Positions 21,360 to 51,898 of a stretch of 64,000 bases of DNA are shown here, one piece after another. The stretch lies in contig CDLV01000015.1 of NCBI GenBank assembly GCA_001244265.2, positions 744,001-808,000 on the forward strand, read 5' to 3'. The notes beneath the pieces are model-generated. The model made no database searches and was not told the DNA's origin. It saw only the letters and a list, made by a program, of their open reading frames with translations. Origin of the DNA: Microbotryum violaceum. Lineage: Eukaryota. Position 1 is the first letter of the stretch. Every line of letters begins with the position of its first letter. The translations under genes were made by a program, and so were the position numbers.

Positions 21360-23841
21360 ATGGCCTCGCACTCTTTCACCAACGAAGCCGACGAATTCAC
21401 TCAAATCTCATTCCTTTCCAACCCTTCCAACCTACCCCAACCCACCCCCGTTCCGAAACTCGATCGTTCCCAAGTCCTAGCTCAACACCAGGCGCTGATC
21501 GAGCGCGAACGAGCATGGAGTCAGTCTTCCTCCACTGAGACAAGACAACGCAAAGAGGTGGTGGGGCCGTATAAGCCTTGGTCTAGGAGGACTGGATCCA
21601 GGGACTTAGAGTTTGTGGAAGGATTGCACAAATTGAGGTGCGATGAGAGTGCCAAAGGTCAGTTGAGGAAGAGACGTAGCGCGAGGTGACTTGGGGGCCT
21701 AGCTTGCATGCACTCACCAACCTGTTACCATCCAGGCAAGGCTTTACTCGTTCGAATCATCTCTCCCACCGTTGTCAATTCCATCTCGGTGCATTGCGTC
21801 ATCGAAGATAACCTCGGCGACGTCGCTCCCGTCCAGCTCTATCGACTCCCCCGAAACACGTCGCTACAAGATCTAAACGATCGTTTTCCTCAAAGCTCTA
21901 CATTCGGTGAGTTCTTCGACCTTGCACAATACCATTTCGTGAACCCTCTGCTGATTGAACAAGGTCACACTGAGTTGCACAGTCATTTCCGAGCCGACGC
22001 TTCGATCAAGCAAGGGTGGTTTCCTAATTCGCATCGACTCGCCCGCCGATTTTCACGAATGTTTAGACCCACTCAACGTCCAAACGAATCCATTCCGCAA
22101 CGAAAAGCAAAACCTTTCCACACCCCAGGAATACGCATTGGCCGCCGAGACTTACCTCGAGCAAGGTCGTCTTCAAGCCGGTTTGAGATCGTGTGCGCTC
22201 GCGATGGATCGCGCGTGGAATACAGGCAAGGATGAACTACTCGCATCGTTAGGATATCTCCAAAGTAGAGCGCTCTATGAAGTAGGTCAATACCGCAGTT
22301 GTTTGGACGGGACCGAAGGTGCGTTCGAGACTGCGAGTAATTGGCCTCAAGCGACGGATCCGAAGGGACAAATTGCGAAAAAGGCGTTGTGGTTGGGTGC
22401 GAAAGCGGCGTATCGGATCCAGGAATGGGATCATGCGAAGGGGAATTTGGCCGATCTGAAAAGGTTGCAGAAGTTGGATGGCGAGATGCTCGAGTTGGAG
22501 CGCAAGATTGGAAAGAGAATCGAGGAGAATCGAGAAGGTTCGTTCGAGTGGGAGGGGCTGTTCGACTCTGCGAAAGAGGGGAAATATTCGGAAACTTCAG
22601 ATTATCGACAACCTTCGATCGAGGTTCGGGAGATCGAGGGAAAAGGTGCAGGGGTGGTCGCCAAGTCCAGGATCGAACGAGGGGAATTGATCCTGTTCGA
22701 AGAGGCGTTGGCGAGTGCGGAATCGACTTCGCTTTTTCAAGGACATGGAGGAGGCTCATCGACTATCTGTGTGAATCTCTTCACGAAGGAATACGATCCC
22801 GAAGCATTGGGCCAGACCGTGTCGGTCTTATTGGAGAAGATGTCTGGGGACGAGAAGGTCAAGAAATTGGTTTATGATCTGAGCACGGGACCTGCGGAGG
22901 GGGTTTTGGATAAGTTGAGGGTCGAACGAGTGAAGGTAGAGGAAGACGAAGTGTACGACTACGACGAAGAAGAGGATGACCCGGACGCCGCTCCACCTGG
23001 TCTCGACGTCAGTCGCGTCGAAGCGATCGTCACTTACAATTCGTTCAAAGTACGCTGCATCACCGCTCAAGCCTCAGCATTCGATCCCACGGCCAAAGAT
23101 CAACCCAAGACCGATCGTTTGGCGATCTACAACTTTGCCTCGCGCTTCAACCATTCGTGTCTGCCCAACGTTTCGTACCAATTCCTCGGTGATCGCATAC
23201 TCGTACGCGCGATCAAGACGATCGAAGAAGGGGAGGAAGTCGTACTTTCGTATACGGATTCGATGAGGGGTCTTGAAGAGAGGAGAATGCATCAGGAGAA
23301 ACACGGGTTTGAGTGTGGGTGTCGGTTGTGTGCGTTGGATGCCTGGGAAGGGAGCAAGCAGAGGGAGGAGAGGCGGTCGTTGATTACGCAGTTGGAGGAG
23401 ATGGACGAGAAAGAATCGGACGACCTTGATGCGTACCTTGACCTACTCCGACAGATTGATGATACCTACGCAACCGATCGACCTACGTCACTTCGATCGG
23501 AATCCTTCCGACCCCTTACCATCTTTGCTGAACGACTTGCGCGGGCCTCACAATTGGCGCAAGCGATCGAGATGCAGAAAAGGGCGTTGGAAGCGGTCGG
23601 AGCTTCGTTCGCACCCTCCACCGAAGTGGTGAACTCATTCCCCATCTTGGGCGATGAAGAGTCCGTCAAGATGGCTTTGCGGATCGCGGATAAGTATCAG
23701 GCGATGGGGGACAGGGCCAAGGTCGGGATTTGGGTGGAGAATGCGAAGAGGTTGGAGGATGGGGAGAGTGGAGGGGTTTTGTTGGAAAGGAGGTATAAGG
23801 ATTGGGTTGGAGATATGGGCATCAAGTTGGATTTGAGGTAG
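21360..23841 (+). CDS. TPR + SET-domain lysine methyltransferase (SMYD-like)
   Basis: TPR-like helices, then GKGAGVVAKSRIERGELI, ASRFNHSCLPNV, EEGEEVVLSY and post-SET FECGCRLC. Two 5' introns. Confidence 0.88.
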
Positions 23842-41646: not shown

Positions 41647-43341
41647 CTAATCGCAACGGCACACCTTGTTCTTGTGGTGCTTCTTAGGCTTGTGGCCCCC
41701 TGACCAACTGCTTCCGCCGCCTCCACCGCCTCCACCACTGCCACCGTTGCCACCGTTGCCACCGTTGCCACCGTTGCCACCATTGCCACCACTGCCGCTA
41801 TAGCCACCACTGCCGCTGTCGCCGCCATCATCGCCGTCACCGCCATCACCGCCGTCACCACCATCACCGCCGTTACCACCGTTGCCACCGGCTCCGGGGT
41901 ACCAAGAAGAAGGCCCCGAAGGACCGGACGAAGGGCCAGACGAAGGGCTGGAGTCAGGACCTGAGTCAGGACCGGAGGGAGGACCGGAGGGAGGACCCGA
42001 GGAAGGACCCGACGGAGGTCCGGAGCTCGAGCCGCCGGATTGGCTCCACCAGGTGCACTTGTTGGAACGCCATTGAGAGGGAGCGGACCAGGCGGGAGGA
42101 AGTTTGAAGGCGGGAGTGGGTTGCCAGCCGTTCTCGCTGAGAGGGATTGGAGGAACAACCGGGATCAGCTTCAGCAGGTAAGCGCGGAGGATTATCGAGG
42201 TTGTCTGATGACTTACACGCCGAAGTATCTCCAACCTCTGGGGAAATAACCGGGGCAACCGTGGCCGTTGACATCGTATGCGTAACCGTCGTGACCGGAG
42301 CCTACGGAGGAAGAAGATCGTTCAATACGATGAAAACTGTGCAGCGCAAGCGGGGGAAAGATAAACTGACCATCGCAGCTGAAGGTGAGAGGGCAACGCA
42401 GGCCAAGGTTGAGACCGGCGTTCAAGCTCGCTCTGTGCATCCCACCGGTGAACGAGAGCGTAGAGATGAGTAAAAATGTACCATACCCTTGGAATCGAAG
42501 CGAGGAAAGACTGACCCAAGTCCAAGCGTGTGTCCCAACGCTCCCAAACCGCCCAACAAACATCCACCACTCCCAAGGCCCAAAATTGCGCCCGGGAGAA
42601 GCAAGCACCTCCTTATCAAAGCCCCCGATTCCGAATCCTTGACGACATCGATACTACGTTGACGCAACTTGTAGTACTCATTGTCTTCGGTCGTGTCAAA
42701 GGCCGATTCCGGTGCTGAGAACCAGGGAGCGAGGTAGGCCGTTTTGTGCCATTCGCGAGAGGCACGCCAGTTGGATTCGCAATGGAAACCGGCGGGCGGT
42801 TGCCAGCCCGTGTTGCTGCGAGATGGAAGGACGAGAGGATGATCAAAATCCAGTCGACCACCAAAATAATTAAAATTTGCACTGAACAGAGACTTACACG
42901 CCAAAGTACTTGTAACCACTGAAGCAGCTCGGGCAACCATTGCCGTTGACGTCGTATTCGTAACCGTCACTGCCCGAACCTGTCGCACATCCCGAAAGCT
43001 TAACTCAGTACCCAATCGAATGAACTTCAAAAGAGCATGATAGATAACTCACCATCACACTGGAAATCCAAAGGGCACCTCACGCCAAGGTTCAACCCCC
43101 CATTAAGGGAAACTCCAGCACCTAACCCCAATCCCACACTATCCTGCAGTCCGCCGCCTAGAAGACATCCGTTAAGACCAAGGCCGAGGATGTTACCCGG
43201 GAGGAGGAGACAACGTTTCTTGAGGACCATGCGGGTGCTGACCGCACCATCGGGGAGGAGCTCGGGGGAGGCGGAGGCGGAGACGAGGGCTTGGAGCGCG
43301 CCGAGGAGGAGGAGTGCTTGTACGCGCGTGTGAACTTTCAT
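41647..43341 (-). CDS. Secreted protein with two tandem Kex2-delimited Cys/Trp/Gly modules and a Ser-Gly-Pro / Gly-Gly-X tail
   Basis: Signal MKVHTRVQALLLLGAL. KKR|CLLLPG and IRR|CLLLPG begin two homologous modules. Five GT-AG introns splice in frame to ...HKPKKHHKNKVCRCD*. Confidence 0.85.
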
Positions 43342-44239: not shown

Positions 44240-46143
44240 CTACGGATCCAACTCCACTTCCAAACCCTCCCCGATCCCTCCTCCTTCCCCTCTCCACTCC
44301 CACACCTCGAATTTATGATTCAAGCCCTCCCCCTCCTGCACCGTAAATACGCTCCCGCATCCACCGGACCCCGATGCTTTGCGTATATAATAAACATTCG
44401 CGATCCTCGAATGCAACAACGCCATCGAACACATCAAACACGGTTCGTGGGAAATGAACAAGGTCATTCCTGTGAGGAGGTAAGGGGGTGTTGAAGAAGG
44501 GTTGGAGGAACGAGGGCGGAGGTTTTGTCGATCCATTTGAGCGACGGAGTCGATTAGATTTGGGATGGCGTGTAAGAGAGGGTTTGAGGTGGAGAATCTC
44601 GTATCGTGCGCAGACGAAAGTCGGATCGGAAGATTCGTCGGGGAATGAATCTCAGGATCAAAGGATTCCGTCACGTGACATGCGATAGGTTGCTCTCCTT
44701 TCTCATTGCGACTTTGCTTCGCCGCTCGCCAAACTTTCTCCGCTTCGGATCGGACCCATTCGAGTTTACACCTTTCCCAACCTTGAGCGCGGGGTTTGGC
44801 CTTAGGTCCTTCCCTGATGTGCATCGTTTGAACGGGCCAAAGCTGACCCCAATCCTCAGCTTGGGCATCGGTACGCGCGATCGTGGCCGGGACTAGGAGG
44901 GTGTAGAGGTTCAAGGTGATGTTGACGTCGTTGAAAGGTTGGTGAGTCGCCAAAAGTTCCGAGAGGTTCGAAGGGGCCGAGGATACGGGGAACAAGAGGA
45001 CCGAGACGCTGGGTGAGGACGCGGAGAGAAGAGGTCGAACGCGTTTCAGATGCGAGAGTTCGGCGGGGTGATGTCGGGTATAAGGTTCTGCGTAGAGCTT
45101 AATGAATGCCAAAGCGAGGGGTACATGCCGAGCCGGAACGTCGACGACGTAGCACTCGACTGTGGAGGGGAGAACGGCGCCATTCAGCACTTGAAAGTAA
45201 TCTCCGAGAGCTAAGAGCGCCTCACTCACCTGTCGTCAAGGGTATCTTTTCCGGATCAATCATCCTCGTCACCTTGACCCATTCCAAATCATCAAAGAGG
45301 ACGATATCATCCTCCCACCTCCCCTCTGAAACGCTCGTATTCGTTCCACCTGCCCTTCGCTTGTATTTCTTGGTCTTGAAATCCCGTTGCTCTTCCTCCA
45401 TTTCTCCCAATCTCAAGTCGCTCAATCCACCCCACGGTCCAGCATCTTCATCCGAATCCGTCGGATCTGGTGAAACTCCATTCTGGCCGAAATGAGCATC
45501 GTGACCATAGAATATGCACAATTCTTCGCCCTCTTGAATCGCGCGACAGGTGGTATAATGTATCGTGTATTCGTCGGGGTGAAGCACAAAGTTGATATTG
45601 GGTCGTGGGGAATGGTTGAAGAGACTCCCTGTAGAGTTCAAGGAGGTCAGTTGTCAATCATGGTGAAATGGTAAGAATGAAAAACGAACCTAATCCCAAA
45701 GCCAAGGCCATCCCCTTTTCCTCCTTTTTCTTGCCCTTCCACGTAAACACATAGCCCTTCAACTTTGTCGCATCGACGCGATGACTATAATATTCCTCAT
45801 CGCTCAGAACGAGGACAGGGGCGATCTCGATTAGGGTTCCTGATGGGATGGGAGCAGAAGCGAATACGCCTCGACCTGCTAAAGGGGTGGAGAGGATGGA
45901 GATGGGGGAGGAATGGAGGTGCGGGGTTGTGGAAGGGTAGGAAGGGATCGAGATGGAATAGTTGTAGTCTGGGGCTGCAGCGGTTGAAGTGGAGGGGAGG
46001 GGAGCCGGGGCAGAGGAAGTCGATGCAGCAGACGAGGTGATGATCGAGTCCGAGAAAGCGTGACCGTTTACGAGGCTAGGTACTTGTTCGGTCGTGGGGT
46101 CTTGTATCCGCAGTGGATCGTCGGACGAGGTAGCGTGGTCCAT
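44240..46143 (-). CDS. TAD3: SET-domain / tRNA adenosine deaminase subunit Tad3 (ADAT3) fusion protein
   Basis: SET motifs AGRGVFASAPI, SLFNHSPRPN and EGEELCIFYG. Intron 45229-45160 joins in frame to Tad3 motifs SHLKRVR, WPV, NPLLHAI, YLLTG, HEPCLMCSMALLHSR and LNHKFEVW. Confidence 0.88.
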
Positions 46144-46701
46144 TTTGGGCAGACTGAGGCTGAGGCTGAGGCTGCGAAGGAGCGGAGCCAGGTCCAAAAC
46201 AAGCGGATTGTCAGTCACAGCGAGGGACACGCATATGCGAGGTAAGTCCTGGTCATCCCATGCCGTACGGCGACCGAATCGTACAGGTGTGAAGGTGGCT
46301 GGCTACATGCACATTTCGCAGGCGAGCTCGACGACTCGAAAAAGAAAGCGGAAAGTGGAGCAAGCCTTGTCGAATGAGCACTACTGACCAAGCTGCACAA
46401 TACCAAGGAGCTCGTCCTTAGTGATCGAAAATGGATTTCCGGTGGAGTCGACCCGAGCTTGCGAACGTTGCGAACAGCGCAGTGCTGCTGGGGTGTGCGC
46501 GTGTGGAATCTGGATACTGAGCTACTGAGGCAAAGGTGCGAAGCGAAAGCGCGGAGGAAAGCGGTCGGCGCAGAAATAGAAGGCAGTGCACGCAAACTAT
46601 ACAAACATCGATCTAGCATTTTTTCCGCTGGCCGAATACTTTTCCTTGCACTAGTGCGAAACCACGGTATAGGATGATGTCACATCACACTTGCGGCGTC
46701 T

Positions 46702-47055: not shown

Positions 47056-50000
47056 ATGGCCACCACAGCATCTGCTCCGGTCGACATCTCGACGATCGAA
47101 GCCGCCAAGGAGAACATCCTCCCCCTCGCGTCCGGTCGATCCGCGTCCCAACTCGCCTCGCTTTCCTCCTCCACTCGATCAGGTCTCGGTTCCAAACTCG
47201 CTCAAGAACACAAAAAATTCGATGCCCAGATCGCCGCGATCGATTACTATGAAAACACGGGCGAATGGCCACCACCCCCTTCTTCTTCTTCCTCCTCCTC
47301 CTCCTCTCCCACCTCGTCAGTCAACTCGACACCGCCAATTGACTCGTTAAAGTTGAGCTTGGAGGAAGTCGAACGTATGGCCGAAGACCCTCTGGACGTG
47401 CACCACCAATACGCCCGTTTCGTCATTTCCAACTACCCCGCCGGAGCGAGCGCAGCGAACAAACTCGTACCCCTGCTTGAAAAATCAACCCGTCGGTTCC
47501 TCCAAGATGAAAGGTACCGCAACGATCCGAGGTATTTGAGGTTGTGGAACTTGTACGCCAAACATATCGATTGTCCAGAGGATTGTTACAAGTTCTTGTT
47601 CGCAAAAGGCGTCGGCGAGAGGTTGGCGATGTTGTATGAAGAGTATGCGGCTGTTTTGGAGCAGGCTGGAAGGTAAGCGACGCGTTATGTCGGTCAACGT
47701 AGAGACGGCCGAGCAGGGCGCGCTGACCCGGCCTGCCACTTGTACAGACGGACCCAAGCCGACCAAGTCTACTCGCTCGGCATCAATCGCTCCGCAGCGC
47801 CCTTGGACCGACTCAAGAAACGCTACACCGAATTCACGGCACGGATGCTCATCGCACCCCCTGTGGCATCCCCACCCCGAGCCAATCCATCCACCTCCAC
47901 CGATCCTACCATCAACCCCCATGCAAGACCTGCTCTTTCGGGTCGAGGATTCACAGCAGGAGCGAAGGAGAACCAGTCCGCTTCGTCCACAAACGGTGCT
48001 TCCGCATTCGCCATCTTTAGGGATACGACCCCTTCTTCGTCATCTACATTGGAAAACTCCGGGGGAAGTGAATGGAAGGACCTCGGGACGGTCGCAAGTC
48101 GGAAGAGGGAGAATGAGATGGAAGCCAAGGGTTGGAAGGGGGAGACGATGCCGATGGGGGGTGAGAAGGCGCAGACGGTGGCACCGATCAAGTTGACTGT
48201 TTTCAGGGATGCGGTGAGTGGTTCGCGATTTTTGACGACATTGTGGGGCGGTGACTGACTCGCCGCAACCTCGTGACCGTTTTTTCTTAGGACGCTCCCG
48301 CAACTTTGACTTCACACTTGCAAGACCCAACGATCGACGTCTTTGGTCGCTCTATGCGAGGCCCAAGCGAAGCCGAACAATTGCGCAAGAACCCGTTCAA
48401 GAATTACTCCTCCGCTGACTCGCACCTGTCCACCATCGACCCCCTCGATGGACTCGTCGTCATCGCTCCTCCTAAACCTAGAGTCAAGGCTTCCTCCATC
48501 TCTGGTAGCTCGAGTACAAGCTCGACCAAGGTAGCTGCTCCCTCCACCGCTTCAGCTTCGAATACGAGTGCTGCGCCGTCCTCGAGCAAGACGACTAAAG
48601 GAAAGAAGGAACCCGCTCCCAAACCAACAAGTGAGAAAGTTGCTTGTGACTTGCGGGCCATTTATCCCGATTCTAAATCCGAAGTCAGTTTCGAGGAGTT
48701 GATGATGAAGAAGAGGGGTGGGAAAGTCATGGGTTGGATAGGGTGGGAGTGGGCGGAGGCTTGGAGTGAGGAAATGATGAGGAGGGGGGACAAGTCATTT
48801 GAGAGGGATCTGGGGACGGGATATCCGAGGTTGTACGACCTCAAGACGCATGGTACGTTAGGCTAAGATCACTCGGACTGAGTTCCGCAGAGCTGATGCA
48901 AAAGTGTGACCGAACAGCTCCTCTGTACGACTTGCTCCCTCGACCCGTCGAAGCGACCGTCGTAAGCCCCGTTCAATCTCCGGCGCGCCTCCCTTCGAGT
49001 GATAGCACGCTACAACTCTCGACCATCACCCTCGCCGATGTGCCTTCGACGCAAAGCGAACCCGTACGACTCGTCTCGTCCATTTCGCTCTCCCCTCCCG
49101 TCTCTCGACAGGTCGTCACCTCTTCACCGACCTCTGTACCTCTGCGAGACTCGTCCTCGACGCCTGATCGATCAGACTCATCTTCACCGGTCGATACGAG
49201 GCGTCAACCTTCACCTACCATCAACACGCGTGAAGCTCAAGCTATGATCGATGGCCTTTTCGCCAAAACGCTCAACTTCAATGACCGAGCCCAACCTCGC
49301 ACGAACGAAAATTCCGACTCGGGTTCGGATTCCGAACCTTCTACCGAAGATTCGGACGTCGAGAATGACCGGGCCGCTTGGGCCGATCTTCCCGTTTCTC
49401 AACTCGATCTAGCCATGTCCCAATTCACTTCTCAAGGAGCTACCTCGCAATCGTCCACGGTGAGCGAAATGGAAGCACCTTTCGTACCTTTCTCTCAAAC
49501 GGCTAGTCAGACGCAGGATAGTTTGTTTGGGCCGAGTCAGTTTTCTCAATTGGAGGAATTGAGAGAGCAGTCCGAGTCGAGTGAACGAGTAACTTCGTTG
49601 GGTTTGATGGGGTATGGTGGAGGGGATGAGAATGAAGGGATCGTGGTGGCCAAACCGAGGCCGATGCAATTGTTCCGAGATGCCTTACCGACCCATCAAG
49701 CAGGATTGAACGATCGACCTATTCCTATGTCTTTCAAACCATCTCGAGCACCTTTCGGAGAAAAGTCAGCGTTGAATTTTGCTATTCATAAGGACGAACA
49801 ACCTCAAGGCGTTTTCGCGGCGCACGATAATGGAGCTATCCCTTCTTCGCAACCGGACGAAAGGGTCGATGAATCATTTGAGGATTTTGAAGCGCCTCTT
49901 GCACAGGGGTTCGATACGGACGACGAAGGAAGTGTTGGTTCCGATCGTATCGGAGTTTCGTTGGGTCGTAGACCTGCTGGTGTACCCAATCGTTATGCAC

Positions 50001-51898
50001 CCTTCATTCACGCGATGACACCGATCACGGAACGAACGGGCGAGTACACGGCTTTCAGTTCGTTGTCGACGAGTCAAAGGTCGAGGAGGGATTCGGCGTT
50101 CCCTGCTACGGTTGAAGAGGACGAGGATGAGACCGATTCGGAACCTAGTACTGGGGATGACGAGGAAGAAGAGGAGGAAGGTGAAGTGGCAAATCAGGCT
50201 TTCGAAGGGTTCTTAGGCGGTGCGGCGCAGCCTGAGGAGGAGGATGACTCGACTTCGAATAGCAGTCGGACTACTTCGTCAGAGGACGAGGAAGAGCAAA
50301 TGGCGCCTTCAAGACACGTCTCGATGGCTCCGTCACTCTTTGAGGTTCCTGTCGAGGCACCGCAGGAGTGGCGTCGACCGTCGTTGGTCGGGAAGGAAAC
50401 GAATCTACCCAAGACGAGCAGTGGTCGCCCCTCGACGGAAAACTCGTACGATGCGTCGGTCAATACTTCGCTGCCTGAGGGATTGGCCCTCACGGGCAAT
50501 CGGACTGGCATGACGACTGGGAAGGTTGTTGATTCGACGACTCGCTCGTCCCTCGTCTCGACCTCATCACTCGCTCCGATCGACCCCTGGTCCGACGCCG
50601 CGATCGCCCAAGCCGTCGCCGCCGCCGACCCACCCATCTTCTCGCACCCGAACGTCCGTGATCGAACAACACTCTCGATCAAGAACCTCCCGCAACTCCA
50701 AAAAGCGGCCAAGAAGCGCGAAGGGAAGAACAAATCCAAAGACCGAACCGGCACTTTCGACGAAGTATGGGAATTCCGTCTCGACGATCAAACCTACCCC
50801 GTCCGAGCCAAATTAGGTGAAGGCGCTTTTGGTTCCGTCTTCCGAGTTGCGATGCCCACCGCTTCAGATGATGATCCGGACGCTTCATTCGATTACGATG
50901 CGGAAGAGACGACTATGGCGGTCAAGATTGAACGGCCGACGAATTTGTGGGAATTTCATATTCTCGATCGATTACATTCCCGTTTGGACGAAAGGGTCAG
51001 GAGGAGTGTTGTCGCTGCGAGTCGATTGGACGCTTATGCCGATGAATCGTACCTCTTCCTCGACGTGTGCACGCAAGGGTCCTTACTCGATGCAGTTAAT
51101 AACGCCAATGAATTGGGCATCGCACCCGCGACAGGAGGTGTCGCACAGGGAGTGGACGAGATCCTAGCTATGTTCTTCGTCGTCGAATTGTTGCGCACAC
51201 TAGAAGGCTTCCATCGAGCAGGGTTCGTGCATGGTGATCTCAAGATCGACAATTGTCTCGTTCGACTCGAAGACGTTCCCAATCCCGCTCGTAACTGGTC
51301 CTCGCGCTTCGACCGAACAGGTGCAGGAGCATGGAATGCCAAAGGTCTCAAATTGATCGATTTTGGACGTACACTCGACCTTTCCACTTACCCCGAGGGA
51401 CAGACATTCATTTGTTCTTTCCAAGCCGATCAAGGGGATTGTTTGGAGATGAGGGAACGAGAGGCGTGGACGTTTGAACCGGATTATTTCGGAGCGGCGG
51501 GTATCGCTTTCACTTTGTTGTTTGGCAAACCGATCGAAACGCGTTTGGTCGGCGGGGAAGGTACGAAACGACAAGTTATTGACCAACCTTTTAGGAGGTA
51601 TCACCAAGTCGACTTGTGGACGCAGATGTTTGAGGCGTTGTTGAACCCTCGTTTGGTGAAAGGGTTGGGGGGCAGGTTACCAATCACGGAAGAGGTGGGG
51701 AGGATTAGGGGGATGATGGAGGATTGGTTGGAGATGAATTCCGAGAAGAATGGCAAGAGCTTGAAGAAGATGATCAAGGATATGTGAGTACTGCCTTTCA
51801 AACTTGAATCGCATCTGATGGCTTGTCGGAGGACTGATTGGCTTGCCTTCTTTGCGTCTGCTTTTCTTCTCACCAGAATGAAAGCCTCGCTTCAATGA
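47056..51898 (+). CDS. BUB1: Spindle checkpoint kinase Bub1/BubR1 (Mad3-Bub1)
   Basis: KEN box (AAKENILPLASGRSA), Mad3/Bub1 TPR region (DPLDV, YRNDPRYLRLW), second KEN, GLEBS-like EVSFEEL, and kinase domain (LGEGAFGSV, HGDLKIDN, LIDFG). Confidence 0.95.

What the first reader, a model, noticed from the sequence alone, without database searches (positions are those of the whole stretch)
44240..46143. SET methyltransferase domain fused in frame to tRNA deaminase subunit Tad3
Seen: the SET-coding exons have no stop before a GTGAGT donor at 45229. A 70-nt intron ending CAG at 45160 yields ...KIPLTT-VECYVVDVP..., continuing through a full Tad3 domain. That exon has no in-frame ATG before the conserved HLKRVR motif, so an independent Tad3 gene is unlikely. 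The deaminase has HAI in place of catalytic HAE, as expected for Tad3. Known: yeast Tad3 and human ADAT3 lack a SET domain, and Tad2/Tad3 make wobble inosine-34. Inference: a physical link between lysine methylation and tRNA editing. I cannot tell whether this fusion has been described.
Basis: partly seen in the sequence, partly recalled or inferred. Interest (0 to 1): 0.72.

Follow-up and report, generated by a model that had tools for sequence, protein, structure and literature searches.

The report
Known fungal SET-Tad3 fusion gene
This is a real spliced fungal gene that joins a small lysine-methyltransferase domain to the non-catalytic subunit of the enzyme that makes inosine in tRNA anticodons, but the fusion was already reported for basidiomycete fungi in 2011 and what the methyltransferase half does remains open.

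Summary
A three-exon minus-strand gene (46143-44240) encodes a 590-aa protein: a SET domain most like S. pombe Set7, a loose acidic linker, then a full Tad3/ADAT3 (HAI for HAE). Contigs from two runs of a ~96%-identical relative skip both introns in one piece, including the 45159/45230 joint. Nine metagenome loci carry the fusion as one intron-free ORF. It is not new: Iyer et al. 2011 (PMC3239186) reported the basidiomycete SET-Tad3 fusion and proposed the same inference. This scan also noted it on another genome (e1-7575650). Added here: SET catalytic motifs are nearly invariant in 125 fusions, so the domain is probably active. The fusion is widespread but not universal: SET-less Tad3 occurs in annotations of rusts, Wallemia, Tilletia, Serendipita and others, and in raw contigs. 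The SET domain is predicted to homodimerise (0.60 vs control 0.02; possibly from memory of Set7). Most likely Tad3 works with Tad2 as usual, and the tethered SET works largely independently. Already known; modest interest as an untested link.

The parts
45690..46143 (-). Exon 1: ATG, low-complexity N-terminus (aa 1-70) and first half of the SET domain
   Evidence: aa 1-65 pLDDT <50
45629..45689 (-). Intron 1, 61 nt, GT..AG, inside the SET domain
   Evidence: skipped in contigs of X2 and X3
45230..45628 (-). Exon 2: second half of SET (NHS, EELCIFY), acidic linker, start of the Tad3 N-terminal domain
45160..45229 (-). Intron 2, 70 nt, GTGAGT..CAG; holds the TGA (45224-45222) that would end a 286-aa product if retained
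   Evidence: joint 45159/45230 in X2 and X3
44240..45159 (-). Exon 3: rest of Tad3/ADAT3 (HLKRVR, deaminase fold) and stop
45489..45912 (-). SET domain, aa 78-198, Set7/vSET-like (spans intron 1)
   Evidence: phmmer to 5H6Z E 1.1e-23; Foldseek TM 0.83 by target, 45% identity
45318..45488 (-). Acidic linker, about aa 199-255, low confidence in the model, variable length in relatives
44564..44572 (-). HAI: zinc-binding His with Ile in place of the catalytic Glu
   Evidence: no HxE in 122 of 122 fusions where the motif was located, 3 of 125 not located
44429..44443 (-). PCLMC zinc-binding motif

Best explanation
This is the genome's single TAD3 gene, in the basidiomycete form that carries an N-terminal Set7-type SET domain. 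SHOWN here: one spliced reading frame joins the two domains; Tad3 lacks the catalytic Glu; a catalytic Tad2 (HAE, PCIMC) is encoded elsewhere in the genome; the SET cofactor-binding and catalytic motifs are conserved. FROM ESTABLISHED KNOWLEDGE: Tad3 pairs with Tad2 as the non-catalytic, tRNA-binding subunit that makes inosine-34. INFERRED: the SET domain is an active SAM-dependent protein-lysine methyltransferase, probably a homodimer. It hangs on a flexible linker and most likely does the job of its free-standing orthologues in other fungi (Set7), largely independently of deamination. The fusion would then mainly co-express and co-localise the two activities, and I34 formation would not need methylation.
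For: Fusion: 9 loci, 4 distinct sequence types, with SET and Tad3 motifs in one stop-free frame of 571-600 aa; SET upstream on the same strand in 50 of 80 loci. One Tad3 match in the own genome; Tad2-type gene at L002. SET motifs in 125 fusions: G90 124, Y131 125, N156 125, H157 124, E187 125, L188 125, Y192 125. Independence: linker pLDDT <50 and pTM 0.53 with both domains well folded; SET-to-Tad3 gap of 6-238 aa in 130 proteins; SET-less Tad3 in named basidiomycete annotations and in raw contigs L050, L054, L037, L052; stand-alone SET in Serendipita, Exidia, Auricularia, Meira. Homodimer: score 0.60, best of 3 controls 0.02; runs agree in at least 96% of contacts; pLDDT at least 79; the mark was reached by 17 of 29 eukaryotic homodimers and 0 of 30 single chains, but by only 1 of 7 without an older solved relative.
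Against: The fusion is kept in all three subphyla, which could reflect selection for coupling rather than independence. No activity, substrate or localisation was measured. A low pTM does not exclude a transient contact. The dimer prediction may be recalled from solved Set7 or vSET. Several SET-less annotations could be gene-model errors: Phanerochaete carnosa is SET-less while P. sordida is fused, and one ENA call of a Cyphobasidiales gene lacked the SET that NCBI's model has.
Confidence: 0.55

Rival explanations
1. Functional coupling, as Iyer et al. proposed: the tethered SET domain methylates Tad2, Tad3 or an associated translation or tRNA-processing protein, or its dimerisation joins two Tad2/Tad3 pairs, and so tunes I34 formation.
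For: The fusion is kept across Pucciniomycotina, Agaricomycotina and Ustilaginomycotina. The predicted dimer interface is more conserved than the rest of the domain: mean 0.77 vs 0.60; 14 of 30 vs 23 of 94 positions at 90% or more; 27 of 10000 random sets reach it. Proposed in PMC3239186.
Against: SET-less Tad3 genes exist in several basidiomycete lineages and in all non-basidiomycetes seen. The linker is variable and unstructured. Interface conservation may simply reflect core and active-site residues, and the sequences are related.
Confidence: 0.33
2. The locus also makes a SET-less Tad3 isoform (internal start in exon 2) or a 286-aa SET-only product (intron 2 retained), so the two functions are partly delivered separately.
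For: In-frame ATGs at 45401 and 45263, and a stop inside intron 2. Fusarium TAD3 has long and short transcript isoforms (PMC11156358 section 7).
Against: The only bridging contigs are fully spliced and run from upstream of the ATG into exon 3. M228 is K in M. saponariae, and M274 lies after the conserved 266-270 element. Contigs drop rare variants, so minor isoforms were not tested.
Confidence: 0.15
3. The SET domain modifies tRNA itself (a new base near the wobble position), the second suggestion of Iyer et al.
For: Tethering to a tRNA-binding subunit; proposed.
Against: [quoted passage not shown] The domain is 45% identical to free-standing Set7 in the structural alignment.
Confidence: 0.05
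4. Two adjacent genes joined by a wrong splice prediction.
For: A stop follows the donor by 5 nt, and in-frame ATGs exist in exon 2.
Against: Spliced contigs bridge the joint; intron-free fused ORFs exist in other basidiomycete-like contigs; exon 2 holds both SET and Tad3 sequence in one frame.
Confidence: 0.02

Closest known systems
Basidiomycete SET-Tad3 fusion (Cryptococcus CNBC2910; Iyer et al. 2011, PMC3239186)
   Same: Same architecture (N-terminal SET, C-terminal Tad3 lacking the HxE Glu) and same phylum; the C. neoformans protein P0041 is a hit with both domains. NCBI models are already named 'Set and Cytidine deaminase-like domain containing protein'.
   Different: Nothing essential; only the species and the linker differ.
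Tad3 / ADAT3 (yeast 7BV5, mouse 7NZ7-9, T. brucei 8AW3)
   Same: N-terminal domain with HLKRVR, deaminase fold, zinc ligands H and PCxxC, no catalytic Glu; top Foldseek hits, E 2e-19 to 4e-14.
   Different: The solved chains are 317-369 aa and match only the C-terminal half; they have no SET domain.
Schizosaccharomyces pombe Set7 (PDB 5H6Z, 5WW0)
   Same: Best match of the SET half: E 1.1e-23 by sequence, TM 0.83 by target, 45% identity. Reported as an H3K37 methyltransferase (title seen only in a reference list).
   Different: Free-standing 147-169 aa protein; whether the substrate is the same was not tested.
PBCV-1 vSET (1N3J, 3KMA)
   Same: Minimal SET fold, E 3.7e-8, TM 0.88 by target; that it is a dimer is recalled.
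   Different: Viral, free-standing, H3K27-directed by the PDB name; about 30% identity.

Membership tests
Basidiomycete SET-Tad3 fusion (Iyer 2011) | N-terminal SET and C-terminal Tad3 in one polypeptide | tested here: met
Basidiomycete SET-Tad3 fusion (Iyer 2011) | Basidiomycete host, homologous to the Cryptococcus prototype | tested here: met
   558 of 590 identical to an M. saponariae protein; C. neoformans P0041 hit at E 1e-20 with SET. CNBC2910 itself was not retrieved by name.
Tad3/ADAT3 | Deaminase fold with H and PCxxC zinc ligands but no catalytic Glu | tested here: met
   HAI and PCLMC
Tad3/ADAT3 | Tad3-specific N-terminal domain (HLKR motif) | tested here: met
   alignment to mouse ADAT3 from residue 317; H321 and L322 invariant in 52 sequences
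Tad3/ADAT3 | Catalytic Tad2 partner encoded in the genome | tested here: met
   L002 has HAE and EPCIMC, best PF00383 match; named Tad2 from its motifs, orthology not tested further
Tad3/ADAT3 | Heterodimer with Tad2 that makes I34 in tRNA | not testable with these tools
   needs biochemistry or tRNA sequencing
Set7-type SET lysine methyltransferase | SET fold with GxG, NHS and EELxxxY motifs intact | tested here: met
Set7-type SET lysine methyltransferase | Homodimer | tested here: inconclusive
   model supports binding, 0.60 vs best control 0.02, but may be from memory of solved relatives
Set7-type SET lysine methyltransferase | SAM-dependent methylation of a protein lysine (H3K37 in S. pombe) | not testable with these tools
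   needs an assay

The most novel reading that the evidence does not exclude
In most basidiomycetes the wobble-inosine enzyme is a SET-bridged dimer of Tad2/Tad3 pairs whose methyltransferase modifies the editing complex or a translation factor. Lysine methylation would then directly set I34 levels and codon decoding, and lineages with SET-less Tad3 (rusts, Wallemia, Tilletia, Serendipita) would have lost this control several times.
Probability: 0.2. Interest if true: 0.6.

Novelty: already known. Interest (0 to 1): 0.2.

Why it matters
The architecture is in print, so it is not a discovery. Its value is as an old prediction for which four searches of the held library found no experimental follow-up (most subscription journals are not held). 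If the SET domain proved to regulate I34 formation, it would be a direct link from lysine methylation to the reading of the genetic code in a whole fungal phylum. The intact active site, the predicted dimer interface and natural SET-less lineages make that test easy to design.

Tried and rejected
Two-gene/mis-splice reading: rejected. Alternative acceptors: 4 other in-frame AGs keep a long frame (45210, 45201, 45189, 45087), but only the 70-nt intron is seen in contigs. No listed run is on record as RNA; X1 gave 5 short contigs, none bridging a junction, and X6 is an unspliced near-identical contig that may be this DNA's source. Only 4 of 11 listed runs were laid. SET-domain tree of 41 sequences: poorly resolved. 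Fused SETs were not monophyletic, and stand-alone ascomycete, mucoralean and liverwort SETs nested among them, so it cannot order fusion against fission; the stand-alone SETs of Exidia, Auricularia, Serendipita and Meira fell beside fused ones with weak to moderate support. Essentiality data: not obtained. In PMC5922974 the supplements held gave no hit for the gene; supplement 1 is too large to read and file 1 is cut, so the answer may lie there. In PMC12136443 no Tad3 row was found with recalled gene identifiers, and the C. neoformans locus tag could not be got because the cluster's tagged member P0418 is unrelated to P0041. The S. pombe Set7 paper is not held. A search for its dimer in the library gave nothing relevant. 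The bacterial promoter scan is not applicable and showed nothing.

Full report
Observation. The gene lies on the minus strand, head to head with a Bub1/Mad3 kinase gene. A script on the window gives ATG 46143, exon 1 to 45690, a 61-nt GT-AG intron, exon 2 45628-45230, a 70-nt intron 45229-45160 (GTGAGT..CAG) and exon 3 45159-44240. Retaining intron 2 would stop the frame at 286 aa. Pfam finds the two halves of a SET domain in exons 1 and 2 and the deaminase domain in exon 3. The model equals an annotated 590-aa Microbotryum saponariae protein at 558 of 590 positions, so the window is from a Microbotryum species. The genome holds one match to this Tad3 and a separate gene with HAE and EPCIMC, read as Tad2 from its motifs (L002).

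Is the joint real? Four of 11 listed runs were laid. X2 and X3, from one study of a relative about 96% alike, each have a single contig that runs from upstream of the ATG into exon 3 and skips both introns, with joints 45159/45230 (70 nt) and 45627/45689 (61 nt). Their RNA status is the tool's guess, but loss of two GT-AG introns is what spliced cDNA gives. Independent of splicing, 9 of 80 metagenome loci hold all SET and Tad3 motifs in one stop-free frame of 571-600 aa; they fall into 4 distinct sequence types. A minor SET-less isoform is therefore possible, and Fusarium TAD3 has short isoforms (PMC11156358, section 7 and passages read). It was not seen here, but contigs cannot show rare forms.

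Distribution. With exon 3 as query and proteins over 534 aa, 43 of 47 hits carry both domains; the other 4 are animal or unnamed (the length filter favours fusions). With the SET region as query, 109 of the 120 listed hits (of 215) carry SET and the Tad3 zinc motif, 5 carry SET with part of Tad3, and 6 unnamed ones only SET. Named hits cover Pucciniomycotina, Agaricomycotina and Ustilaginomycotina. SET precedes Tad3 in 130 of 130 proteins, with a gap of 6-238 aa. The fusion is not universal. Of 150 Tad3 representatives 28 had SET, and many of the others are fragments or non-basidiomycete. Of 20 SET-less ones chosen for look-up, named members were from Mixia, Melampsora, Cronartium, Puccinia sorghi, Austropuccinia, Phaffia, Wallemia, an Auriculariales species, Hysterangium, Phanerochaete carnosa, Botryobasidium, Serendipita, Tilletia and Clavulina (partial); one proved to be a piece of a fused Cyphobasidiales protein. 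Stand-alone SET proteins are annotated in Serendipita, Exidia, Auricularia and Meira, and in ascomycetes, a mucoralean fungus and Bacteroidota. Annotations can be wrong, so raw contigs were checked: of 80 loci (the best of 404), 50 have SET upstream on the same strand 154-872 bases away, 2 (L050, L054) have none within 1.5 and 2.3 kb, and 28 were too short by my rule. Of those 28, L037 (near-duplicate L038) has a divergent ORF directly upstream and L052 an in-frame stop before its ATG, so they too look SET-less.

The two halves. By sequence and by fold the C-terminal half is ADAT3/Tad3 and the N-terminal half is closest to S. pombe Set7 (5H6Z; E 1.1e-23, TM 0.83 by target) and vSET. No fusion has HxE (0 of 122 located, 3 of 125 not located). 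In 125 fusions the SET motifs are almost invariant: G90 124, Y131 125, N156 125, H157 124, E187 125, L188 125, Y192 125. That these are the SAM-binding and catalytic motifs is established SET knowledge, recalled. AlphaFold2 folds both domains well and leaves residues 1-65 and most of 196-252 below pLDDT 50, with pTM 0.53, as expected for two domains on a tether. Two copies of residues 72-202 scored 0.60 against a best control of 0.02; runs agree in at least 96% of contacts and pLDDT is at least 79. On eukaryotes this mark was reached by 17 of 29 homodimers and 0 of 30 single chains, but by only 1 of 7 without an older solved relative, so the pass may be memory of Set7. Interface positions are more conserved than the rest (0.77 vs 0.60; 27 of 10000 random sets), though core residues would be too.

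Mechanism. Most likely Tad3 works with Tad2 to make I34 as in other eukaryotes, and the SET domain is an active, probably dimeric lysine methyltransferase that does the job of free-standing Set7 orthologues largely independently (0.55). The main rival is functional coupling, by methylation of the editing complex or by dimerising it (0.33). Direct tRNA modification (0.05) and a mis-splice artefact (0.02) are unlikely. Additional SET-less or SET-only isoforms (0.15) are compatible with the first two. Only the gene structure, motif conservation and distribution are shown; activity, substrate and coupling are inferred.

What is known. Iyer et al. 2011 (PMC3239186; passages read) state in their Table 1 and text that basidiomycete Tad3 is fused to an N-terminal SET domain (example Cryptococcus CNBC2910) and suggest methylation of RNA-editing proteins or synthesis of a new modified base. 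NCBI models already carry the name 'Set and Cytidine deaminase-like domain containing protein'. Four searches of the held library listed no experimental study of the fusion; of their hits I read passages of PMC3239186, PMC7306014 and PMC11156358 and saw only listings for PMC12884345 and PMC10275265. Most subscription journals are not held. For Set7 as an H3K37 methyltransferase I saw only the title in a reference list. Supplements of PMC5922974 and PMC12136443 were searched without finding the gene's essentiality; the largest file of the former could not be read. This scan noted the same fusion on another genome with the same verdict (e1-7575650), looked up after my own reading was formed.

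Verdict. Real, well supported, already known. The patchy distribution and the predicted dimer are small additions that sharpen an untested 2011 hypothesis. Interest 0.2.

Noticed in passing
window 21955-23841 (+): A second, unrelated SET gene: 628-aa open frame with a long-insert SET domain at 22645-23253 (Pfam E 5e-13) after a helical, TPR-like N-terminal part (the TPR label is my impression).
   Followed up: partly
window about 47056-51787 (+): Bub1/Mad3 spindle-checkpoint kinase gene (Mad3_BUB1_I and Pkinase), head to head with SET-TAD3 across about 900 bases.
   Followed up: partly
window about 42200-43340 (-): ORF with a signal-peptide-like start and an internally repeated Cys/Gly/Leu-rich unit (similar segments near 43210-43050 and 42700-42370); looks like a secreted protein with a duplicated module, followed by a Gly-rich frame at 41647-42321.
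   Followed up: no
window 46150-46175 (-): Short hexamer repeat just upstream of the ATG; its length differs in the relative's contig X3. The relative's contigs also jump from 46172 to 46419 with 28 other letters between, a possible 5'-UTR intron or a diverged stretch.
   Followed up: no
L009, L010, L014, L015: In these Microbotryomycetes-like loci the SET-linker exon frame breaks off at the same peptide position as intron 2 of the window, suggesting a conserved intron position.
   Followed up: partly
P0047: A Trichuris muris UniRef protein joins a SpoU RNA methylase to a deaminase domain; may be a gene-model fusion.
   Followed up: no
P0006, P0023: Two SET-Tad3 models carry extra domains (DUF2462 N-terminal; DUF2834 C-terminal), probably merged neighbouring genes.
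   Followed up: no
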